A stretch of 64,000 nt of DNA from Candidatus Levyibacteriota bacterium (GTDB taxonomy: Bacteria; Patescibacteriota; Microgenomatia; Levybacterales; UBA12049): the NCBI GenBank assembly GCA_030651475.1, contig JAUSEW010000002.1, positions 83,927 through 147,926 on the forward strand, written 5' to 3'. Both the position numbers and the translations under genes were made by a program. Each line of letters begins with the position of its first letter. Position 1 is the first letter of the stretch. Shown here piece after piece: positions 49,773 through 59,704 of this stretch. The notes beneath the pieces are model-generated. The model was given only the letters and a program-made list of their open reading frames with translations. It searched no databases and had not been told where the DNA came from.

Positions 49773-50528
49773 TTACTTAGCGAGGCAAATTTTTTTCCAA
49801 TAGAACACGTTTATTTTCTGATACTCAAAACTTGGCCAGTAATAGTTAGCTTTCATCTTGCATTTTTCAGCTATCCCCGGACACTTACTTAAAAGTGCTT
49901 TGCGGTAGATATTTTTATGTTTTTCCGCTCCCGTTAGAATTTTTCTATGGACATCTGCAAAGCTCAATATCAAACCGGTTAAAAAATCGGTTGCTTGAAT
50001 CATATTGGAAACGCCTGTAAATTCTCCGTTTTTTGCCCTATTTTTAGAATCCCGCCGATACACTTGTACAATAGTTGTATCTTTTTGTTTCAAAAAAGTC
50101 GGCAAAATAACATTACCTTGAAAACCTTTGTCGTCAATATTCAAGAGTTTCTTGTGTTGTTCATATTTTTCAGGACTGATCGAACGGCAAAGTTCGGCGT
50201 AGGCGGAAACGTATGCCATATCCTTTTTATCTAAACCATAATGGTTATCTTCAAAATAATCTTTGTTAGAAAAAAGGTTATCTTTAATGAGTATTTTAAA
50301 ATAAATATCTTCTGTTAAGAGAAAATAATCTATGAGTCTGACGGCGTAAAGAATCTGGGAATAATCTGTTGAGGAGTATTTCAACTCTCTTTTTTCATAT
50401 CCGCACTCTTTTCGGATTTTTTGAATATTTTGCATGTGGATGGTAGGCGTAGTAGTGAATAAGAAACCGACAGCCCAAATTTTGTCAGCGCCTGGAGTAT
50501 TTGATTCATCGCCGTATAGATATAACAT
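49773..50528 (-). CDS. DUF3800-family protein
   Basis: N-terminal LYLYGDES... matches the DUF3800 Y-x-DES start. It is the last gene of the defense-like operon. Confidence 0.55.
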   Translation of the reverse strand: MLYLYGDESNTPGADKIWAVGFLFTTTPTIHMQNIQKIRKECGYEKRELKYSSTDYSQILYAVRLIDYFLLTEDIYFKILIKDNLFSNKDYFEDNHYGLDKKDMAYVSAYAELCRSISPEKYEQHKKLLNIDDKGFQGNVILPTFLKQKDTTIVQVYRRDSKNRAKNGEFTGVSNMIQATDFLTGLILSFADVHRKILTGAEKHKNIYRKALLSKCPGIAEKCKMKANYYWPSFEYQKINVFYWKKICLAK

Positions 50529-50596: not shown

Positions 50597-50968
50597 CTAA
50601 TCGATCTTGCCATAGAAAGCTAGACTTCCCTTTGTAATTCTTTTGTACTTCCATCCTTGTCGCTTACAATACGCTTTGGCACTTTCACCCTTTAATTTTG
50701 TAGAAACCCATAAAAGTAAAGGCAAACCTTTTGTCTCGTGCAACTCTTTTGACCCATCTTGATATTCCACTAAAAAATCCGGTAAATAATTGTGAGTAAA
50801 ACCAAGCAGCTTATAAGGAATTCTAATCCCATGTTTTTTAGTCCAGCTTTTTACTGCCGGATCTCTTTCTAGTTCCACCATATACTCTCGTTCTAATGCT
50901 GAATCGTAACTTTCCCAACCACTAGAACTTTTTCTTAACTGTGTTAATCTTCCATGCTTTGTTATCAT
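50597..50968 (-). CDS. small TnsA-N-like PD-(D/E)xK endonuclease-fold protein
   Basis: YLPDFLVEYQDGSKELHETKG fits the D...E-x-K core of TnsA_N and restriction-endonuclease-like folds. Its start overlaps the helicase stop by 4 bp. Confidence 0.45.
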   Translation of the reverse strand: MITKHGRLTQLRKSSSGWESYDSALEREYMVELERDPAVKSWTKKHGIRIPYKLLGFTHNYLPDFLVEYQDGSKELHETKGLPLLLWVSTKLKGESAKAYCKRQGWKYKRITKGSLAFYGKID

Positions 50969-53013
50969 TTACTGGTTAATATCCCTTCAATTAGTTCAGG
51001 CCTTAAGAAAATATCATGTACTTGGTCAATCATTGCCCAGAGAATTCTTAGTTGTCTTTCATCGGCTTCCTCAATTGCCTTACCAAGCAAAAACCTTTTT
51101 GTTATATGCTGTCTAATAATTTTTATTAAATATGCTTGTCTATCATCAGGATTTCTATCATATTCAAGTAAGGAAGCTATCGCAATATTATGTGTCTGTT
51201 TAATTATTTGTTTTTTTATCTCATCTAGGCTCCAATGGTCTGTATTAGTAGCCTTCGCTAAATTCCTTACATCGATTTCAGGGAGATTTTTATCCAAAGT
51301 TGTCATATCAGAATCAAGATTTAAACTTTTAATCTGGGCAACATCTTCAGATATATTCATTTTGTGCGGGTCATATTCATACTGATCAAGGTATTTTTGC
51401 CATTCATAAATTGGTTCAACAACTTCCGGTGGTTCGGGAGTCGCTGGAATTTTTGACATATCGAGTTTTTCCTCTGCCTCTCCTATTGTCTGCTCACCTT
51501 CTTCAACGGTTTCTATTGTTTCTTTCTCTGTCGGAATTTTTGCTTCATCGATGATAATGTTTGCTGGATCAAGCTGATCCGGATATTCAGTTGCTCTTAA
51601 ATTTTCCCAAAGCCATTTATGCTTTAAGATTGGGTGATCCACTACGAATAATGATTCCCATTCCTCTGTACTTTTTCCCATTCTTCGAAGTCCTCTTCCG
51701 ATTACTTGCGGGCCATAAACAGAAAACTTTTGTCCGCCAACCTCTTTATAGCTAAACTTTCTAAACAGAACCTCAACTGCAATATTTCTTACGTCCCATC
51801 CTTCCCGAAGCATTAAAACAGAAATCACAGCATCAAATTCGGGATGTGGATTTTGATTAAGAGTTTTTGCTTGATCGACTAACTCATCATTTTGTTCATT
51901 ATGAACCAATAAAGTCTTATTGACTTCGTATTTTGGGCCGATCTCCTGCAATGCCCGATCAATATTTTCTGCGTCTGCAATTGATAGAGCAATAACAAAA
52001 AGTAATGGCTTGAATCTTGGTTGACCATCCTTTCCTCTTGGCACGGCTAATCTTTGCTTTGCTAAAAGCTCTAACCCTATGGCTAATTGTTGACGCATTG
52101 GTTTAGCGCTGGTGATATATCTTCTGGCTGGTATTTTTCTTTTTTCAATTTCTTCCCAAGGCATCTCTTCTTCCGAAATAGTTTTACCAGTTATTAAATC
52201 CTCATATGTTAATTTCACTTTCCTAACGTCAGGATGAAAAACTACAATCCTTTTAATGATTTTATCCTTCATTGCTTCGGCAATTCCGTACACAAAGATC
52301 ATCTCGCTATCTGGATGCAAACCATCCAGTCTATCCGGTGTAGCAGTTGTATCCAAGCGGAAAAATCTTTTTGGTTTCAATTTATTTATTAAATCATTAT
52401 AGATTTCTGCTTTTGTATTATGAGCTTCGTCATTAAAGATAACTATGGAATCAATATTTTCCATCAAAACTTTCCAGTTATCTCTTTTTTCGTAGATCTG
52501 CTGTATGTTTCCAATTAAAATATTATTTGCCCTAACGCCAGCAGAGCTTGCTCCTGCTTCCATAACATGATGGGAAAGTCTATCTTTAAGAGGTAAATAC
52601 GAGTTGAAGAAGAACGGAAAAATATTGTAAATATAAATATAGGAGTTCGGATCAAACTCATCTACTAACCTTGATCTGACTATTGTATTTGGCGTGAGAA
52701 CTAAAAATTTATTTTGATCATGCACAATCATCATGTAAGCAATCATTGCGCCAATGACTGTGGTCTTGCCTCCACCTGTAACTATATTTGTTAGAACATC
52801 TTTAAGCCCCAATATTTCAAAAGAATAAACGCATCTCTCAATCGCTTCAATTTGCACTTTCTTCCATTGTTTTTCGTTCCAAAGTTCAAGATTTGGTTTA
52901 AAGTGTTGAGAATTAAGGTGTTTCAAAAAAGCAATACCAGCATCAGGAATCCCTTCATAGGTTTTTCTCCACTGCTTAAAATTCGCCTCATGTGGCTTAA
53001 AAAAATACTGCAT
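50965..53013 (-). CDS. Type III restriction Res-like SF2 helicase (ResIII domain, DEAH box), apparently without its own nuclease domain
   Basis: Motif I TGGGKTT, motif II IIFNDEAHNT, motif III TATPDR, motif VI QVIGRGLRR. No PD-(D/E)xK motif is seen in the C-terminal ~200 aa. Confidence 0.75.
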   Translation of the reverse strand: MQYFFKPHEANFKQWRKTYEGIPDAGIAFLKHLNSQHFKPNLELWNEKQWKKVQIEAIERCVYSFEILGLKDVLTNIVTGGGKTTVIGAMIAYMMIVHDQNKFLVLTPNTIVRSRLVDEFDPNSYIYIYNIFPFFFNSYLPLKDRLSHHVMEAGASSAGVRANNILIGNIQQIYEKRDNWKVLMENIDSIVIFNDEAHNTKAEIYNDLINKLKPKRFFRLDTTATPDRLDGLHPDSEMIFVYGIAEAMKDKIIKRIVVFHPDVRKVKLTYEDLITGKTISEEEMPWEEIEKRKIPARRYITSAKPMRQQLAIGLELLAKQRLAVPRGKDGQPRFKPLLFVIALSIADAENIDRALQEIGPKYEVNKTLLVHNEQNDELVDQAKTLNQNPHPEFDAVISVLMLREGWDVRNIAVEVLFRKFSYKEVGGQKFSVYGPQVIGRGLRRMGKSTEEWESLFVVDHPILKHKWLWENLRATEYPDQLDPANIIIDEAKIPTEKETIETVEEGEQTIGEAEEKLDMSKIPATPEPPEVVEPIYEWQKYLDQYEYDPHKMNISEDVAQIKSLNLDSDMTTLDKNLPEIDVRNLAKATNTDHWSLDEIKKQIIKQTHNIAIASLLEYDRNPDDRQAYLIKIIRQHITKRFLLGKAIEEADERQLRILWAMIDQVHDIFLRPELIEGILTSK

Positions 53014-53065
53014 ATTTACTCAATATTAAGATAGGGTCTAATTTAATTATTACTATTGATATTTC

Positions 53066-54796
53066 TTAAACTTCATAGATCGTATTTATTTTATCTATTA
53101 TTGTGTCATAAACATACTCGAAGTTAGCGTGTGTTTTTTTAGATAACTTTTTTAGTATTGCCTTTACTTTTTTTGAAAAATAAAGAGTGGCAATAGTCTT
53201 TTCGAATGACGTATTATTTGGAATAGCTAGCTCGCTTCTAATTAATCTAATATCCTGCCCTTCAAAAAGATCCTGAAGTATTGTTTTTTTTCTTGATTTA
53301 GAATTAAGTGGTAACAACAGAAATTTTTTTCCCTCTTCATCGCCAAAAAACTTCATTGAATTCTCGAATTCCCTCTGACCTTCAACATCATTATCCCACA
53401 TAGCCAAGTATTTCAATCTCCATCCTATTGAAATTGATATAAAGTACGAAATACTTTCAGCATTTACTGATGGTAAAAATCCTAAATTTAATGTTTTTGG
53501 TTTAAATAATTCAAAACAATAGAAATCATATATTCCCTCAACTATGCATATTGATTCAAAATTAAAGTCTGTTATAAACGGTTTGATTTTGAGAGCATCA
53601 ATAATTGGTTGAACAGCCAGTCTTTTCTCTTTACTATTGTCTTTATATTCCAAAAGAGAAAGAATGCTTATTGATCCATTACTGCTTTTTTGTGCAACTC
53701 TCACGGAATTAAGCGGTATCTGCGATGGATCAAGTAAATAATGAGAATGTGTGCAGTAAATAACGACATTATTGCTAGACAAGTACGAAAGCTTCTCGCA
53801 TAATTTAGATTGAGCACTGGAATGCAGATACGACCCTGGCTCATCAAGTAAATATATAGTATCCTTATCTTCCATACTTCTAACTTTTGGGTTAAATTCA
53901 AGTTTCATAACGAAATTAAAAAACCAGTAAAATCCTTTACTTCGATCACGAATCCCAAAATATCTCTCTTTCCCCTCTATAGTTTCCTTTACAAGAAGCT
54001 TTAAGAATGGTCTCTCCTCTTTAAGGCTATAGTCAATTTGTACATCCAATCTTGCTCCTTTTTCTAAAGTAAATTTTTCCCACTCTTTTGCTAAAGTTTG
54101 ATTTAATACCTTACATGCATCTCCCAAGATACTTTGTCTTGTTAACTCTTCAATCTCCTTTAATTTAAATACTGAATAGTCATTATTTGTTTTTCTGAAT
54201 AATTGTTCAATAATTTCTAACCATCCCTTAGCTTGATTATTCTCACCTACTATTTCCATTTCTTCTTGGACAGTATCCCTGAAGTCATCGAAATATAAAA
54301 TATGCGGAGTTTTCCGAAGTATTGTATCTATCAAAAGCGTATTAATATTTGAGTAGTTTTCAAGTTCTTGGTTCTTAATCGAGTACTGTTTATTTATAAG
54401 ATCTCTCTTGATAAATAAATAGCATGTTTTCTGATCAACCCTAGAAACAAACTCTTTAAATTCTGTTAGTTCTCGTACAGCGTCTTCAGATAATCCTGAT
54501 ACATTTCCTAGTTGTTCGTGTATACTTAGGCATTCTTCTTTGCTTATCTCTATTTTTGCTGTTACTGAAGGCACTCCCTGATCGGTAGTTTTGTATAAAT
54601 TCCGGACATTTATTAACTGTCGCCCATCGTTTAGGCTATCGTTCGAAAGATCAAAAGCAAAAATTGCCCATAAAATACTAGTTTTCCCGCTTTCATTTAT
54701 GCCAATTATAGGAAGCAAGCTCCTTTTAGAGATATCTACCTCTAAATTTCCTGAAATAGCTTTATAATCAGATATTGTAAAGCTTAAATACCTCAT
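53066..54796 (-). CDS. OLD-family nuclease: ABC-type ATPase (AAA_15/21) fused to a C-terminal Toprim domain (GajA-like architecture)
   Basis: Walker A GINESGKTS, Walker B IYLLDEPGSYLHS, H-loop CTHSH, then Toprim E (CIVEGIYD) and DxD (AMWDNDVEG). 576 aa. Start overlaps the methyltransferase stop by 4 bp. Confidence 0.7.
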   Translation of the reverse strand: MRYLSFTISDYKAISGNLEVDISKRSLLPIIGINESGKTSILWAIFAFDLSNDSLNDGRQLINVRNLYKTTDQGVPSVTAKIEISKEECLSIHEQLGNVSGLSEDAVRELTEFKEFVSRVDQKTCYLFIKRDLINKQYSIKNQELENYSNINTLLIDTILRKTPHILYFDDFRDTVQEEMEIVGENNQAKGWLEIIEQLFRKTNNDYSVFKLKEIEELTRQSILGDACKVLNQTLAKEWEKFTLEKGARLDVQIDYSLKEERPFLKLLVKETIEGKERYFGIRDRSKGFYWFFNFVMKLEFNPKVRSMEDKDTIYLLDEPGSYLHSSAQSKLCEKLSYLSSNNVVIYCTHSHYLLDPSQIPLNSVRVAQKSSNGSISILSLLEYKDNSKEKRLAVQPIIDALKIKPFITDFNFESICIVEGIYDFYCFELFKPKTLNLGFLPSVNAESISYFISISIGWRLKYLAMWDNDVEGQREFENSMKFFGDEEGKKFLLLPLNSKSRKKTILQDLFEGQDIRLIRSELAIPNNTSFEKTIATLYFSKKVKAILKKLSKKTHANFEYVYDTIIDKINTIYEV

Positions 54797-56799
54797 TTTG
54801 TTACCTCCATTTTTTTACTTAAAATTGTCTCTCCTGCTAAATTATCTTGTACTTTGCACGCAACAACATACTCTCTCTCTTTATCAAATTTATGCTTCGC
54901 TTTTAACACTGCCTCAAAAATCTCTCCACGCTTTTTACCTGCCCCGTTGCGCAGCTTTACGGGGTCCTTTTTCTTTTCTCGAGATAAAACATAATCTTTA
55001 TCTGCAGAAAAATGTCCTTCCTGATAATCAAAATCCCATTGAGCATTTACAAGCCAGCCATCTTCATTTGTTGAAATTGCATCCACTGCTTCAAACTCAT
55101 ATTCCAAAAGCCCAATTTTTTTAATCTTAATATCTCCAATTACAGGAGGTTTGGAAAAACGAAGGAATAATTCCGCATCTTCAACATCGGGCATTCTTTG
55201 TAAAATCCTTTGCCTAAAGGCTTTGGAATCTAACGGAATTGCTTCCAATTCTATAGGCAGATTATATTTTTGTGAATAATTTTGCAGAGCTTTAACATAA
55301 GCCAATACTTGTCTGGAAAATCTCCAAGCAACAATTTTTGCACGGATCATTTGATTTACTTGAACTTTGGCTTTTATTTCATCGAAAAACGTTTTAATAT
55401 CCTTTACGTCAATTGATTCATTTGGATTGGGATGCCCAATATAAATTGGTTCTTGTTGCGCAGGCGGTCTATAGCCATGAGTAACTCCTGCTCCGGTATT
55501 TCGGCTCGCTCCATAAGCAGTTAAAACAAAATTTATAAATTCTTCTTGATTTAAGTTTTTAAACTTCTCAACTGGGTAAACTCCCAAATAGTAAACTTCA
55601 ATATTGGGAACTTTCTCAAAAGTGCCTTCCGTCTGTAACCCCAACTGAAAGGCTTTATTGTCAGTTGAAATATTACTTTTAACCCCGCTCATTTCCTCCC
55701 CAACTTTTACCAACCTATCTAAAGTAACGGAAACAGCCACTCTTGAAGAATCACAGCCAATAAATTTTCTTTTCAATTTCTGAGCTACAGCTAATGTTGT
55801 TCCACCTCCCACAAAAAAATCTGCTACTACCTCGCCTTCGTTTGAAGAGGCTTTTATAATTCTTTCTAAGAGAACTTCTGGTTTCTGAGTCGGGTAACCG
55901 ATTCTTTCTTTGTGAACTGCTGGAATAGTAGGGATATCCCAGACATCCTCGGGATACTTTCCTTCATCTAAATAATATTTATAGTATTTACCCATTTTAG
56001 AACTCCATTTTTTTCTAAATCTCCTTCCTTCTTCATCTTTATAGTGAAAGTTTTCCTCTGCAGAAGATTCCTTAAATGGGACTTTTACTCTTTCTATTTC
56101 AAATGTATATTTTTTGGATTTGGAGTAAAGAAAAATAATATCATGCTTCTTGCTAAAATCCTTTTTTGATTTTGCTCCCATGTGATACCACCAAATAACT
56201 TCATTTACAAAATTTTCATATCCAAAAATCTTATCCATCTCTGTTTTAATATAATGACTAGCATGCCAGTCGCAATGGACGTAAATACTGCCTGTATTTT
56301 TTAAAACTCTTCGCATTTCCCAAAGCCTAGCGTTAAGCCAAATCAAATAACTCGTTATTCCACCTTCCCAAATATCCTCAAAAGTTCTTACTTCGTTACT
56401 GTCTCCCCAAATAACGTTGTAATTTCTGCCAGAGAAAAAGGGAGGATCAATATAAATTAAGTCTATTGAATTGCTTGGAAGAGTACGTAAGACCTCTAAA
56501 TTATCCCCAAGATAGAGTTTATTAGCCGGAGATTGTGGGTCATTAAATATTACCGTATCTCCATGATTTTTAGGATGAAGTGCAGGAATATTAATATAAG
56601 GAAATACCCTATCAAATGCTTTATGGTCATCATAACCAAGAGGCGGATTTGTCGGGTCTGGTAAATTATGTAAGCGTTTCCTAAGTTTTGAAGAAACAGA
56701 AATAACACTCTTTTGATCTGGGCGTTCCTGCCCTTCGGATTCTTTCTGTATTTTCTCTAATTCCTCTTTGTCAATTACTGATTTATTCTGTGTGTGCAT
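54793..56799 (-). CDS. beta-class DNA N6-adenine/N4-cytosine methyltransferase (Type III Mod-like) with an extra C-terminal domain
   Basis: Motif IV IYIDPPFFSG comes before motif I VVADFFVGGGTTLAVA, which is the permuted order typical of Type III Mod and N4/N6 methyltransferases. A ~300-aa C-terminal extension follows. Confidence 0.8.
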   Translation of the reverse strand: MHTQNKSVIDKEELEKIQKESEGQERPDQKSVISVSSKLRKRLHNLPDPTNPPLGYDDHKAFDRVFPYINIPALHPKNHGDTVIFNDPQSPANKLYLGDNLEVLRTLPSNSIDLIYIDPPFFSGRNYNVIWGDSNEVRTFEDIWEGGITSYLIWLNARLWEMRRVLKNTGSIYVHCDWHASHYIKTEMDKIFGYENFVNEVIWWYHMGAKSKKDFSKKHDIIFLYSKSKKYTFEIERVKVPFKESSAEENFHYKDEEGRRFRKKWSSKMGKYYKYYLDEGKYPEDVWDIPTIPAVHKERIGYPTQKPEVLLERIIKASSNEGEVVADFFVGGGTTLAVAQKLKRKFIGCDSSRVAVSVTLDRLVKVGEEMSGVKSNISTDNKAFQLGLQTEGTFEKVPNIEVYYLGVYPVEKFKNLNQEEFINFVLTAYGASRNTGAGVTHGYRPPAQQEPIYIGHPNPNESIDVKDIKTFFDEIKAKVQVNQMIRAKIVAWRFSRQVLAYVKALQNYSQKYNLPIELEAIPLDSKAFRQRILQRMPDVEDAELFLRFSKPPVIGDIKIKKIGLLEYEFEAVDAISTNEDGWLVNAQWDFDYQEGHFSADKDYVLSREKKKDPVKLRNGAGKKRGEIFEAVLKAKHKFDKEREYVVACKVQDNLAGETILSKKMEVTK

Positions 56800-57095: not shown

Positions 57096-57917
57096 TTATG
57101 AAAGTTGCTTAGCCCTTTGTTTCTTAGGTAAGTAATTCTTTTTGGAAACTATTGACCTTCCAAGACGTTTTTCAAGCTTTCTTCTTGCACCGCCGGCAAT
57201 ATCACCACCTGCTTTGGCATCACTTTTAAGTTTAGGCATTCCTTTTGAATCTTCGTTGCGATGAATTTCAGTAGTAGCCCTTTCCCCAAGCATGGTAAAA
57301 ATTAACTCAAAGTCATCCATGTGATCTCTTAAGTTTTGCCGCTTTAATCCCTTTAACTTTTTGTACTGACTTGGAGTTACACCAAACATTGCTTTGGAGA
57401 TTTCAGCCGTGAGAATTTCATAATCCCTCTGTATCCTTGCTCCTCTTTTTTGCCATTCATCAGTTAATTCTTCGCGGATAGCAATACCTCTCATCCGTTT
57501 CTCTATCCAATCATCAGAATAACCTTTTGCTTTATACAAGGCTCTTGTTCTTTTGGTTGCCAGTTCAGGATCTTCTATTTCTTGGATTCTTTCATATCCA
57601 ACTCTTGCCAGCCATCTTTTGAAAGGCTCAGCTTTGGGAGAAGGGATAGACTGGATGATACGAAAAACTCCTTCGGTATTGGCACAGCTTATTTTTTGTT
57701 TTCCTCCTTTTGTTTCAATTAAAAGGGGGGTGGCAATTTGCCTCCACCCCTTGGAGATCTCGGGGTCACGTCGGCGCATATCTTTGATATACCCTTCGGG
57801 TTGAACAGAATCGGTAAGTGCTGCAACTACATCAACAATAACAAACCACCATTCATGGTGATGGATAGTCTTACGGATTTGCTTATTTCTAAAAATAGCA
57901 ATTTTGGTATCAATCAT
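57096..57917 (-). CDS. Bro-N (KilA-N-like) domain protein, phage antirepressor / DinD-like
   Basis: IDTKIAIFRNKQIRKTIHHHEWWFVIVDVVAALTDS matches the Bro-N consensus (..IR....G..WF...DVA..L). The start is set at the internal Met (MIDTK) because the upstream 48 codons include the right inverted repeat and a hairpin. Confidence 0.55.
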   Translation of the reverse strand: MIDTKIAIFRNKQIRKTIHHHEWWFVIVDVVAALTDSVQPEGYIKDMRRRDPEISKGWRQIATPLLIETKGGKQKISCANTEGVFRIIQSIPSPKAEPFKRWLARVGYERIQEIEDPELATKRTRALYKAKGYSDDWIEKRMRGIAIREELTDEWQKRGARIQRDYEILTAEISKAMFGVTPSQYKKLKGLKRQNLRDHMDDFELIFTMLGERATTEIHRNEDSKGMPKLKSDAKAGGDIAGGARRKLEKRLGRSIVSKKNYLPKKQRAKQLS

Positions 57918-57949
57918 GAATTTCAGTATAGCATGTCTGAAGAAAGGAT

Positions 57950-57971
57950 GGCCAAAGTGCCTGCCCGTCTC
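57950..57971. repeat. right 22-bp inverted repeat (cctgcccgtctctggagggagc)
   Basis: Reverse complement of 57018-57039 with one mismatch. Confidence 0.8.
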
Positions 57972-57997
57972 TGGAGGGAGCAGAAGCGACCGACTGT

Positions 57998-58019
57998 GCC
58001 CTGAGCGAAGTCGAAGGGC
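57998..58019. repeat. hairpin with the conserved loop GAGCGAAGTCGA, copy 1 (gccct-gagcgaagtcga-agggc)
   Basis: Member of a 4-copy family. Other copies at 60361-60396, 60816-60837 and 60948-60977. Confidence 0.7.
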
Positions 58020-58223
58020 TACCTTTAAAAGCAGTTCGGACTTTTTCATAAACGTCCACAAAATTCACCCTGTTATTTTAGGCATTCATCATGTCCACAA
58101 ATTCTTGCTGCTCTGTTTGCTTCAGCAATTCTTTTATCTGTATTAAAACCACAACAGTGATAATATGCGGAGCTATTAGTTGATTTTTTGCAGGTTCTTC
58201 TCTTTTGAAATTTTCTCTTTCCA

Positions 58224-58468: not shown

Positions 58469-59704
58469 TTATGTTTTCTTCATAGCTTTTAACGCGTCAA
58501 GTTTTATTCGCCTAGCAACTTGTTTTTCTCGCTTAGTTTTATTTTTTTCGTTTCGCCATGCTTCGAGCATCTTTCTAAGTGTCGTTGTCAAAGCAAGGTC
58601 ATCAGAGAACTCTTTGATAGCCCCTTCTACTAATTGAACGTCTTTATTATCATAAATAATGAAAGCGTTTCCTTTTATTTGGTGGATTAAAAACTTACGT
58701 TTCAAATCACCTTCAAGCATGCGTAATGTTCTGTTGCCCAGGAAAGAATCCACAAGAATAGGTTCGTTTGTAGTTAATATGAATTCCAATTCTTTTAGGT
58801 AAAACTCTTTGCTTACGGGCAATTCTCCTCTATCGTTAGTCATAGATCCAAGTATTACGGCATATGAATAAGCAGTATGGAACCCATTTGGACTAGAGGG
58901 ATTTTGATTTTTTTCTTCTTCATGAATTATTTCATGCATTTTGTTTGCCGCTTTACGTTTCCACGATTCGTCAACGGAGGTATTGTCGTATAGGTCGCTT
59001 AACGGTTTGTATTTATCAATGTCACGAATGTCAAAACCAAACAACATTCTTAACACAGACTCAATATATTCAGAAGATATGGGATGATTATGAATAGTAA
59101 AATGCGCGAATAGTTCCTCCGCTTGTTTAGTATCTAAGGCAGTAAGTAAATGAGGGATAAGCATATTATAGGTCTTTAATGACGTAGCGTAACGTCCGAT
59201 CAGATTAATTATGGCCATACGCTCTTCTTCCGTTGGTGTTCCTTTTTCTTCTATTCCTACTTCTATTGTTTTTACCGCTTTTTCCGTTTCTTTGACGTAG
59301 TCTGGAAGTTTAGAAGCAACAAAATTTGCTTGTTCTTTGCTTAGTTTTCCTAACAGTCTCTTTACCCGACCCTCTTTATTTTCATCAGCATCTCTTCCAT
59401 ATGAAATGTACGAAATAAATAAACCGAGATTGCCGTGGCTGTTTTCCGCATCAACGCTTACTAAGAAAGGGAGTTTTGTAATATCGGGTGCAAAAAGCAC
59501 TTGTAATGCTCTTTGTTGATATTGCGGATCAACATCTTCTCTTAAAAGAGCAACCATATCGTCTTTGGTTCTTTTGACACCCATAAACTGATCCCAAGCG
59601 GCTTCTTGAGGACCTTCGGGGAAAAACCTATGAATAGTTTCTTCTAAGAAATTATCAACGCGTGGATCTAGGGGCGGAGTTCTTTCTTGTTTTGATCCTG
59701 CCAT
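58469..59704 (-). CDS. hypothetical protein
   Basis: 411-aa ORF with no recognised motif. Lies within the accessory island. Confidence 0.3.
   Translation of the reverse strand: MAGSKQERTPPLDPRVDNFLEETIHRFFPEGPQEAAWDQFMGVKRTKDDMVALLREDVDPQYQQRALQVLFAPDITKLPFLVSVDAENSHGNLGLFISYISYGRDADENKEGRVKRLLGKLSKEQANFVASKLPDYVKETEKAVKTIEVGIEEKGTPTEEERMAIINLIGRYATSLKTYNMLIPHLLTALDTKQAEELFAHFTIHNHPISSEYIESVLRMLFGFDIRDIDKYKPLSDLYDNTSVDESWKRKAANKMHEIIHEEEKNQNPSSPNGFHTAYSYAVILGSMTNDRGELPVSKEFYLKELEFILTTNEPILVDSFLGNRTLRMLEGDLKRKFLIHQIKGNAFIIYDNKDVQLVEGAIKEFSDDLALTTTLRKMLEAWRNEKNKTKREKQVARRIKLDALKAMKKT

What the first reader, a model, noticed from the sequence alone, without database searches (positions are those of the whole stretch)
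53066..54796. OLD-family ABC-ATPase/Toprim protein embedded between mod and res
Walker A, Walker B and H-loop motifs of the OLD/AAA_21 clade are present, and a C-terminal Toprim (E plus DxD) follows, at a GajA-like length (576 aa). Here it is translationally coupled to the methyltransferase and followed by an SF2 Res helicase, not the UvrD-like GajB seen in Gabija. OLD-family genes inside a Type III-like R-M cassette would be an unusual linkage. It may gate the system by nucleotide sensing, as proposed for GajA.
Basis: partly seen in the sequence, partly recalled or inferred. Interest (0 to 1): 0.7.

Follow-up and report, generated by a model that had tools for sequence, protein, structure and literature searches.

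The report
OLD nuclease cassette inside restriction operon
The gene is a real but divergent OLD-type ATPase-nuclease sitting as a swappable cargo cassette between the methylase and helicase genes of a Type III-like restriction system; this extends the known habit of defence genes nesting inside other defence operons and is not a new kind of machine.

Summary

Its start overlaps the mod stop (ATGA). A ResIII helicase and a separate TnsA-like endonuclease follow.

The protein is nearer Class 1 OLD than GajA, and most relatives are solo genes.

About a quarter of sampled family loci show Mod-OLD-Res, in at least two clades. Close relatives of this same restriction system (Res 69-93% identical) carry nothing, toxin-antitoxin genes, DUF3800 or unknown genes at that position. 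DNA homology to one of them breaks exactly at the edges of the OLD gene. An 81%-identical OLD sits between an unrelated mod and res.

The OLD is therefore exchangeable cargo, most likely an autonomous second-line nuclease. It is unlikely to be a nucleotide-sensing gate of the restriction enzyme. Precedents are RloAB in Type I loci and HEC-04 in Hma systems.

The parts
53066..54796 (-). OLD-family nuclease gene (576 aa): ABC ATPase with an inserted helical/dimerisation region (about aa 1-385) plus an OLD-type Toprim and C-terminal helices (about aa 410-576)
54680..54703 (-). Walker A / P-loop GINESGKT (aa 32-39, K38)
   Evidence: Invariant G, N, E, G, K, T in 52 homologues; coordinates
53822..53857 (-). 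Walker B and D-loop IYLLDEPGSYLH (aa 314-325; D318, E319)
   Evidence: Invariant LLDEPGS; aligned to the Walker B of TsOLD, GajA and UvrA; coordinates
53741..53755 (-). H-loop CTHSH (aa 348-352; H350)
   Evidence: T349 and H350 are invariant (whose numbering is one lower); coordinates
53525..53545 (-). Toprim glutamate motif IVEGIYD (E420 = metal A ligand, D424 = metal B ligand)
   Evidence: Invariant E, G, D; aligned to TsOLD E377 and D381
53378..53401 (-). Toprim DxD motif MWDNDVEG (D468, D470 = metal A ligands)
   Evidence: Invariant W, D, D, G; aligned to TsOLD D431 and D433
53021..54792 (-). The cassette: OLD gene plus 52-nt spacer. This stretch has no counterpart in the closest relatives of the surrounding restriction system.
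   Evidence: blastn to L113, L114, L110 and L111 breaks at or within about 20 nt of the mod stop (54793; exact for L113 and L114) and within 7 nt upstream of the res ATG (53013-53020)
54793..56799 (-). mod: N6/N4 DNA methyltransferase, 668 aa. Its stop overlaps the OLD start (ATGA). The variable central segment, about 55900-56190, is probably the target-recognition domain.
50965..53013 (-). res: ResIII SF2 helicase subunit, 682 aa, with no nuclease domain
   Evidence: All 120 listed homologues, of more than 1700 found, are about 630-695 aa, most 676-691
50597..50968 (-). Separate TnsA-like PD-(D/E)xK endonuclease subunit, 123 aa. Its start overlaps the res stop (ATGA).
   Evidence: Conserved as a separate 122-124 aa gene in L110-L114

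Best explanation
The gene encodes a self-contained OLD-family nuclease of the Class 1 (single-gene) kind. It has an ABC ATPase head with an inserted helical region, joined to a two-metal Toprim nuclease.

It occupies, as exchangeable cargo, a slot between mod and res of a three-gene Type III-like restriction-modification operon (Mod, Res helicase, small TnsA-like endonuclease). It is transcribed with the operon and translationally coupled to mod, so it is made whenever the restriction system is made.

Its most likely role is a second-line defence layered on restriction. On a signal of infection it would nick or degrade DNA, stopping the phage or killing the cell. Possible signals are a phage protein that blocks restriction or recombination, or aberrant DNA ends. 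This follows what is known for P2 Old, Vibrio OLD, PARIS, and PrrC nested in a Type I system.

Shown here: the domain architecture and catalytic residues, the embedding, the coupling to mod, the recurrence of the arrangement, and the modular cassette-like exchange. Inferred: defence activity, the trigger, and any cross-talk with the restriction enzyme.
For: Identity as an OLD nuclease.

Cargo slot. Relatives of the same restriction system (Res 69-93%, Mod 64-79%, endonuclease 70-87% identical) carry different content between mod and res:
- nothing in L110;
- a 182-aa unknown gene in L111;
- DUF4258 plus DUF2283 in L112;
- a 257-aa unknown gene plus DUF3800 in L113;
- a 198-aa unknown gene in L114.

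DNA homology to L113 runs through mod and through res plus the endonuclease. It breaks at the mod stop and 7 nt before the res start.

Modularity. The window OLD is 81% identical to that of L006 and 73% to that of L007. The window Mod is only 29% identical to theirs over 96-156 aa, and the Res proteins are not significantly similar.

Autonomy. Most family members are solo genes. They lie in prophage or defence contexts (with RadC, Fic, AbiE) or between housekeeping genes.

Selection for the position. Mod-OLD-(RhuM)-Res is found in 11 of 43 unique loci with enough flanking DNA, in at least two clades, and usually with the ATGA overlap.

Composition. OLD has 31.8% GC against 35.5% for mod and 35.8% for res.

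Precedent. RloAB lies inside Type I loci. The ATPase-TOPRIM fusion HEC-04, embedded in Hma systems, defends on its own and needs both its Walker A and its Toprim residues. PrrC, PARIS and Gabija are triggered by anti-restriction proteins.
Against: No experiment exists for this family, so defence, substrate and trigger are all inferred.

The repeated capture at exactly the mod-res junction, in the same orientation and often translationally coupled, could also reflect a functional partnership with Type III enzymes in general. That possibility is not excluded.

The two remaining metal B ligands (equivalents of TsOLD S478 and E480) were not located. The window's own C-terminus does not reach any Pfam or PADLOC Toprim model.

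The neighbourhood sample is dominated by one Saccharibacteria lineage, so '25%' overstates the number of independent events.
Confidence: 0.62

Rival explanations
1. OLD is an integral subunit of a composite, Gabija-like restriction machine. The OLD ATPase-nuclease would work in a complex with the SF2 Res helicase in place of the UvrD-like GajB. Mod would protect self DNA, and ATP or nucleotide levels would gate cleavage.
For: The operon is tight, with an ATGA overlap to mod and only 52 nt to res. Mod-OLD-Res recurs in at least two OLD clades. The Res here has no fused nuclease. OLD plus helicase is a known partnership in Gabija.
Against: The same Mod/Res/endonuclease system occurs without OLD, or with unrelated genes at that position, at up to 93% Res identity. 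A dedicated TnsA-like nuclease subunit is always present, so the system already has its nuclease. The 81%-identical OLD in L006 is flanked by an unrelated mod and res, so OLD and Res do not co-evolve. In Saccharibacteria a RhuM gene can lie between OLD and res. Most family members are solo. ATP gating is not general among OLD proteins: TsOLD and Vibrio OLD cleavage is ATP-independent.
Confidence: 0.15
2. OLD is a guard of the restriction enzyme in the strict PrrC/EcoprrI sense. It would be held inactive by binding the Mod/Res complex and released when a phage anti-restriction protein disables that complex.
For: The position inside the operon and co-expression with mod. The literature precedent of PrrC in a Type I system, and PARIS and Gabija being triggered by Ocr. 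The best PADLOC hit of the ATPase is AriA.
Against: It requires specific contacts with the restriction proteins, yet the same OLD sits in unrelated mod/res pairs and mostly occurs solo. Nothing in the sequence points to an interaction surface. Activation by anti-restriction proteins does not need physical latency, as PARIS shows.
Confidence: 0.15
3. The gene is a passenger with no defence role, or a decaying one. The mod-res junction would simply be a recombination hotspot, and the OLD gene would be neutral or selfish there.
For: The slot holds many unrelated genes, including a putative DUF4258/DUF2283 toxin-antitoxin pair. OLD has a lower GC content than its neighbours.
Against: The ORF is intact, with every catalytic residue conserved. 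The arrangement persists at 70-95% OLD identity across many Saccharibacteria loci alongside co-inherited Mod and Res. The family is large and conserved over its full length.
Confidence: 0.08

Closest known systems
Class 1 OLD nucleases (Thermus scotoductus OLD, PDB 6p74; P2 Old; Vibrio cholerae OLD)
   Same: One polypeptide with an N-terminal ABC ATPase carrying an insert and a C-terminal Toprim. The metal ligands align (E420, D424, D468, D470 with TsOLD E377, D381, D431, D433). TsOLD is the best profile and Foldseek match in the PDB. Most family members are single genes.
   Different: Only about 13% identity to TsOLD. The window's own C-terminus does not reach the Pfam OLD-like_TOPRIM model. 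About 70 residues of helices follow the Toprim core, which TsOLD lacks; the isolated C-terminal domain matches the Class 2 BpOLD C-terminal region best. This copy is embedded in an operon, not solo.
GajA of Gabija (Class 2 OLD)
   Different: There is no UvrD-like GajB neighbour. Sequence models match only the ATPase part. There is no evidence for nucleotide-gated activity.
RloAB / AbiL / PARIS (AriAB), the two-gene ABC ATPase plus Toprim systems; RloAB lies inside Campylobacter Type I restriction loci
   Same: An OLD-type ATPase and Toprim nested inside a restriction-modification locus. AriA is the best PADLOC hit for the ATPase. A role as back-up to restriction is plausible.
   Different: Those are split into two genes, and PARIS cleaves tRNA. 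Here the domains are fused and the host system is Type III-like, not Type I.
HEC-04 and other 'embedded' defences (Payne et al. 2024, bioRxiv 10.1101/2024.01.29.577857)
   Same: A fused ABC ATPase-TOPRIM protein embedded between the genes of a helicase/methylase immune system. The general principle is that such slots hold autonomous defence genes.
   Different: That survey covered Hma, BREX, DISARM and Type I systems, not Type III. HEC-04 is not among the best 25 of 37 PADLOC hits for this protein, so any sequence relation to it is unconfirmed.
PrrC anticodon nuclease inside the EcoprrI Type Ic locus
   Same: An ABC-type NTPase fused to a nuclease, encoded between restriction genes.
   Different: PrrC is an RNase held latent by binding the restriction enzyme. 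Here the effector is a Toprim, expected to act on DNA, and its exchange between unrelated restriction systems argues against obligate binding.

Membership tests
OLD family nucleases (ABC ATPase + Toprim) | N-terminal ABC ATPase with Walker A, Walker B and H-loop | tested here: met
   AAA_15 (41.1 bits, cut-off 32.1) and AAA_21 (35.6, cut-off 27). K38, D318/E319 and H350 are invariant in 52 homologues. Foldseek matches TsOLD, PtuA, GajA and SMC heads.
OLD family nucleases (ABC ATPase + Toprim) | C-terminal Toprim fold of the OLD type | tested here: met
OLD family nucleases (ABC ATPase + Toprim) | Metal A ligands (E, DxD) and metal B ligands | tested here: inconclusive
   Metal A (E420, D468, D470) and the first metal B ligand (D424) are present, invariant and aligned to TsOLD. 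The other two metal B ligands (TsOLD S478 and E480) and the catalytic Lys/Arg were not located. Candidates are D509/D515 and K533, by inference only.
OLD family nucleases (ABC ATPase + Toprim) | Metal-dependent DNA nicking or cleavage; ATP hydrolysis | not testable with these tools
   Needs purified protein.
Class 1 OLD (context-based scheme of Dot et al. 2023, as summarised in PMC10568477) | Single gene with no conserved partner gene | tested here: inconclusive
   Met for the family at large, whose members are solo in most loci. This copy is inside a mod/res operon, but its partners are exchangeable.
Class 2 OLD / Gabija GajA | [quoted passage not shown] | tested here: not met
   The downstream gene is a ResIII SF2 helicase. 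No UvrD-like gene is present in the window operon, in the called genes of the homologous loci inspected, or among the flanking genes scanned against Pfam in L019 and L020.
Class 3 OLD (retron effector) | Adjacent reverse transcriptase and ncRNA | tested here: not met
   None of the nine flanking proteins scanned against Pfam is a reverse transcriptase. ncRNA was not searched for.
Class 4 OLD / PARIS | ATPase (AriA) and Toprim (AriB) on separate genes | tested here: not met
   A single 576-aa ORF carries both domains.
Type III restriction-modification system (the host operon) | Mod methyltransferase with a variable target-recognition region, plus a Res subunit with an SF2 helicase and a PD-(D/E)xK nuclease | tested here: inconclusive
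   Mod is an N6_N4_Mtase with PADLOC MTase_III hits (2e-52), although the best hit is MTase_II. It has a variable central segment. Res has the ResIII domain, but the nuclease is a separate TnsA-like 123-aa protein. The matches to REase_III and to NF046055 are weak or below cut-off. It is best called Type III-like with a split Res.

The most novel reading that the evidence does not exclude
The mod-res junction of Type III-like restriction operons may be a dedicated cargo slot for defence genes, widespread in CPR bacteria and beyond. This OLD family would have been captured there repeatedly because it senses failure or inhibition of the restriction enzyme. That would make it an RM-coupled OLD context alongside the four published context classes, with OLD as an anti-anti-restriction sentinel for Type III enzymes.
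Probability: 0.25. Interest if true: 0.65.

Novelty: new variant of a known kind. Interest (0 to 1): 0.42.

Why it matters
The work gives an unannotated 'AAA family ATPase' family a concrete identity as an OLD nuclease. The family has more than 1000 members, mostly in uncultured bacteria, including the small-genome CPR lineages.

It also shows that the 'defence gene embedded in a defence operon' pattern extends to Type III-like restriction systems. That pattern is documented for Type I, Hma, BREX and DISARM systems. Here the slot is sharply bounded, with cargo varying between OLD, a putative toxin-antitoxin pair, DUF3800, RhuM and unknown genes.

The unknown genes in that slot are therefore cheap candidates for new defence genes ('guilt by embedding').

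The OLD/Type III pairs also offer a test case for whether Class 1 OLD proteins back up restriction when phages deploy anti-restriction proteins. The paired loci with and without OLD serve as natural controls.

Tried and rejected
- A single-sequence search of the PDB gave nothing useful. The family profile was needed.
- Pfam and PADLOC on the window's own C-terminal 192 aa gave no hit even at E = 10. The Toprim call therefore rests on family-level evidence.
- Promoter and terminator scans were at chance level and say nothing about operon boundaries.
- I first suspected that the 682-aa Res plus 123-aa endonuclease was a frameshifted pseudogene. I rejected this because all 120 listed homologues are of similar length (most 676-691 aa) and each of the five relatives inspected (L110-L114) has the separate small gene.
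- I considered that Mod, OLD and Res co-evolve as a unit. I rejected this for the window clade on the identity comparison. Within Saccharibacteria they are simply co-inherited.
- No relative was found in cultured phage genomes. Plasmid hits are at most 30% identical and not in restriction loci.
- Literature searches for a fused OLD inside a Type III system found none. The Krishnan et al. 2020 ABC ATPase survey is not held in the library, so prior mention there cannot be excluded.
- The large representative-protein search and the AlphaFold database fold searches were not used.

Full report
**1. The observation**

An uninterrupted ORF occupies exactly 53066..54796 on the minus strand (576 aa). 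It is not a chance ORF. An identical protein is on record from a Candidatus Levybacteria MAG, on a 158-kb contig. The homologue search returned more than 1100 relatives, most of them 560-580 aa and matching over 98-100% of the query.

The window around it is ordinary chromosome. On one side lie pheST, rplT, infC and a class II aminoacyl-tRNA synthetase. On the other lie trigger factor and a DUF5660 gene. A small islet at about 49.7-58.1 kb is the exception. On the minus strand it holds, in order:
- a Bro-N/PDC-S13 gene;
- mod (54793-56799);
- the ORF in question;
- a ResIII helicase (50965-53013);
- a 123-aa TnsA-like endonuclease (50597-50968);
- a DUF3800/PDC-M04A gene.

**2. What the protein is**

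*ATPase.* The N-terminal two thirds pass the Pfam cut-offs for AAA_15 and AAA_21. They also hit the PADLOC models AriA (7.7e-15), Old (1.1e-12), GajA (5.6e-11) and PtuA. In an alignment of 52 homologues at 45-81% identity, these motifs are invariant (full-protein numbering; alignment A1 is numbered one lower):
- Walker A, GINESGKT, with K38;
- a signature-like S286-K287-G288;
- Walker B, D318-E319;
- the H-loop, H350.

*Toprim.* The window's own C-terminus hits no Pfam or PADLOC model, so it needed separate tests.
- The motifs IVE420-G-IY-D424 and W-D468-N-D470-VEG are invariant across the family.
- A profile of the family finds Thermus scotoductus OLD (6p74) as the best protein in the PDB (E 2.7e-7). 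The alignment runs from Walker B through the Toprim. It places E420, D424, D468 and D470 on TsOLD E377, D381, D431 and D433. According to PMC7049728 these are the three metal A ligands and the first metal B ligand; mutating the metal A triple, or the metal B triple that includes D381, cuts nuclease activity 10- to 20-fold, and combined metal A/metal B mutation abolishes nicking.
- 21 of 25 homologous C-terminal domains hit PF20469 OLD-like_TOPRIM when scanned one by one at E <= 1 (best 2.7e-5).
- The AlphaFold model of the whole protein (pLDDT 86) has TsOLD as its best Foldseek match, followed by PtuA and GajA.

The acidic residues are present, and the protein is not a generic SMC/RecF ATPase.

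Two points stay open. I could not locate the equivalents of TsOLD S478 and E480 or the catalytic Lys/Arg. The roughly 70 residues of helices after the Toprim core resemble the Class 2 or retron arrangement more than TsOLD.

**3. The operon**

- The mod stop codon and the OLD start codon overlap as ATGA, with a GGAGG 8 nt upstream. Translational coupling is what the sequence shows.
- OLD ends 52 nt before the res ATG.
- The res stop and the endonuclease start also overlap as ATGA.

I first suspected that res was frameshifted. It is not. All 120 listed homologues, of more than 1700 found, are of similar length, most 676-691 aa. In each of the five relatives inspected (L110-L114) a separate TnsA-like gene of 122-124 aa follows res. 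The host system is thus a conserved three-gene, Type III-like restriction-modification system with a split Res.

**4. Is the linkage real, and what kind of linkage is it?**

I collected 109 loci encoding relatives of the OLD protein. I then labelled Mod and Res neighbours with profiles built from the examples found.

*Recurrence.*
- Among unique loci with enough flanking DNA, 15 of 61 have a Mod gene immediately upstream.
- 11 of 43 show Mod-OLD-Res or Mod-OLD-RhuM-Res.
- The mod/OLD overlap is 4 bp in most of them.
- In a neighbour-joining tree these loci fall in at least two separate clades: window+L006+L007, and L071 plus a Saccharibacteria group.
- The remaining relatives are solo genes. 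They sit next to RadC, Fic or AbiE genes in prophage-like regions, or between housekeeping genes such as guaA and dnaE.

The arrangement is therefore recurrent and not an accident of this genome. The count is inflated, however, by one Saccharibacteria lineage.

*Two results define the nature of the linkage.*

First, the OLD proteins of the window and L006 are 81% identical, and those of the window and L007 73%. The window Mod is only 29% identical to theirs over 96-156 residues, and the Res proteins are not significantly similar. The same OLD thus occupies the same position in unrelated Type III-like systems.

Second, close relatives of this particular restriction system carry something else between mod and res. 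These relatives have Res 69-93%, Mod 64-79% and endonuclease 70-87% identical to the window's:

| Locus | Content between mod and res |
|---|---|
| L110 | nothing |
| L111 | 182-aa unknown gene |
| L112 | DUF4258 + DUF2283 (a putative toxin-antitoxin pair; my reading of the domains, not tested) |
| L113 | 257-aa unknown gene + DUF3800 |
| L114 | 198-aa unknown gene |

At the DNA level, homology between the window and L113 covers mod (56799-56191 and 55899-54793, with a gap over a variable central segment). It also covers res plus the endonuclease (53020-50575). It stops exactly at the mod stop codon and 7 nt before the res ATG.

The OLD gene plus its 52-nt spacer (54792-53021) is therefore a cassette in a sharply bounded slot. 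Its GC content (31.8%) is the lowest in the region, against 35.5% for mod and 35.8% for res.

**5. Mechanism**

The best-supported reading is that the protein is an autonomous Class 1-type OLD nuclease carried as cargo in the restriction operon and expressed with it. It would provide a second layer of defence. The domain architecture, catalytic residues, embedding, coupling and modular exchange are shown. Everything about activity is inferred from relatives:
- P2 Old and TsOLD are metal-dependent nucleases that need both their ATPase and Toprim residues.
- Vibrio OLD is a defence nickase.
- The ATPase-TOPRIM fusion HEC-04, embedded in Hma systems, defends on its own and needs its Walker A and Toprim residues.
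- PrrC, PARIS and Gabija are triggered by anti-restriction proteins.

This is not supported, for four reasons:
- The restriction system exists without OLD.
- The system has its own nuclease subunit.
- It does not co-evolve with OLD.
- ATP dependence is not a general OLD property.

A strict PrrC-like guard, held latent by binding the restriction complex, is also disfavoured by the exchange between unrelated systems. It is not excluded. The same holds for a looser functional synergy, such as activation by anti-restriction proteins.

**6. Comparison with what is known**

In the context-based scheme, the classes compare as follows:
- Class 2: not met, because there is no UvrD-like neighbour.
- Class 3: not met, because there is no reverse transcriptase among the flanking genes.
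- Class 4: not met, because the domains are fused.
- Class 1: the family as a whole behaves this way, and TsOLD is its nearest solved relative. This copy, however, is nested in an operon.

Nesting of OLD-type ATPase and Toprim genes in restriction loci has been noted for the split RloAB pair in Campylobacter Type I loci. Payne et al. showed that embedded genes in Hma, BREX, DISARM and Type I systems are often autonomous defences, including an ATPase-TOPRIM fusion. TgvAB and DarTG2 inside Type I operons are further examples.

I found no paper describing a fused OLD in a Type III-like operon, or a cargo slot at the mod-res junction. One relevant survey is not in the library.

**7. Verdict**

The gene is a divergent new member of the OLD family in a new host context for a known phenomenon, so I class it as a new variant of a known kind. 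It is of moderate interest. It supplies an annotation for a large uncharacterised family, a clean natural example of cassette exchange inside a restriction operon, and a set of slot-resident unknown genes worth testing as defences.

Noticed in passing
window 50597-53013 (- strand); L110-L114: The Res subunit is split: a 682-aa helicase-only protein plus a separate 123-aa TnsA-like PD-(D/E)xK endonuclease, with an ATGA overlap. This is conserved in all 120 listed homologues (most 676-691 aa), so it is a distinct three-gene Type III-like architecture and not a frameshift. Both pieces match parts of NCBIfam NF046055 (BPTD_3080 restriction endonuclease), below its cut-off.
   Followed up: partly
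mod-res junction: window 53021-54792; L110 7000/7001; L111 6471-7019; L112 6515-6984; L113 3360-4860; L114 2912-3508: The junction between mod and res in this restriction family is a sharply bounded variable slot. It is empty or holds OLD, DUF4258+DUF2283 (a putative toxin-antitoxin pair), DUF3800 plus a 257-aa unknown gene, or unknown genes of 182 and 198 aa. The unknowns are candidate defence genes.
   Followed up: partly
window 49773-50528 (- strand); L113 4171-4860: A DUF3800 protein (weak Pfam hit; PADLOC candidate PDC-M04A, E 1.5e-6) lies just downstream of the restriction operon in the window. In L113 a DUF3800 gene sits inside the mod-res slot. The same kind of cargo thus appears at different positions around the same system.
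   Followed up: no
window 57096-58061 (- strand): A Bro-N domain protein with a very strong match to the PADLOC defence candidate PDC-S13 (E 4e-109) lies immediately upstream of mod. Together with the restriction operon, OLD and DUF3800 it forms a small defence islet between housekeeping genes. A Bro-N gene also lies near the distant OLD-like gene on the Entomospira plasmid (L115).
   Followed up: no
window about 55900-56190 (inside mod): This central segment of mod has no DNA homology to four of the five otherwise 73-84% identical relatives compared (L113, L114, L110, L112); L111 aligns through it. It is probably a swapped target-recognition domain, implying different methylation specificities.
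   Followed up: no
L020, L022, L023, L025, L074, L075 (about 9850-10840 in L020): In many Saccharibacteria loci a RhuM-family gene (328 aa, Pfam E 7e-107) lies between OLD and res. Sister loci (L033, L068, L073, L079) lack it. This is a second cargo in the same slot. A Fic gene precedes mod in these loci.
   Followed up: partly
L110 11219-12844: About 2 kb downstream of the OLD-less relative of this restriction system lies a different 541-aa AAA_15/AAA_21 protein with a 'VEGYSD' motif. It is probably another, distantly related OLD-type ATPase-Toprim (BLASTP to the window OLD matches only around Walker B).
   Followed up: partly
L019 9-9683: This Crocinitomicaceae locus has Res-Mod, a 151-aa gene, an 823-aa SMC_N/AAA_13-type ATPase (the family that includes PrrC/RloC-like proteins), and then the OLD homologue, all on one strand. 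It is a different way of attaching ABC ATPase genes to a Type III system.
   Followed up: no
L037 132-3600: In the clade sister to the window's OLD, one locus has the order OLD-Mod-Res, with OLD 2 nt upstream of mod, instead of Mod-OLD-Res.
   Followed up: no
window 58469-59704 (- strand): A 411-aa ORF next to the defence islet has no Pfam, NCBIfam or PADLOC match.
   Followed up: no
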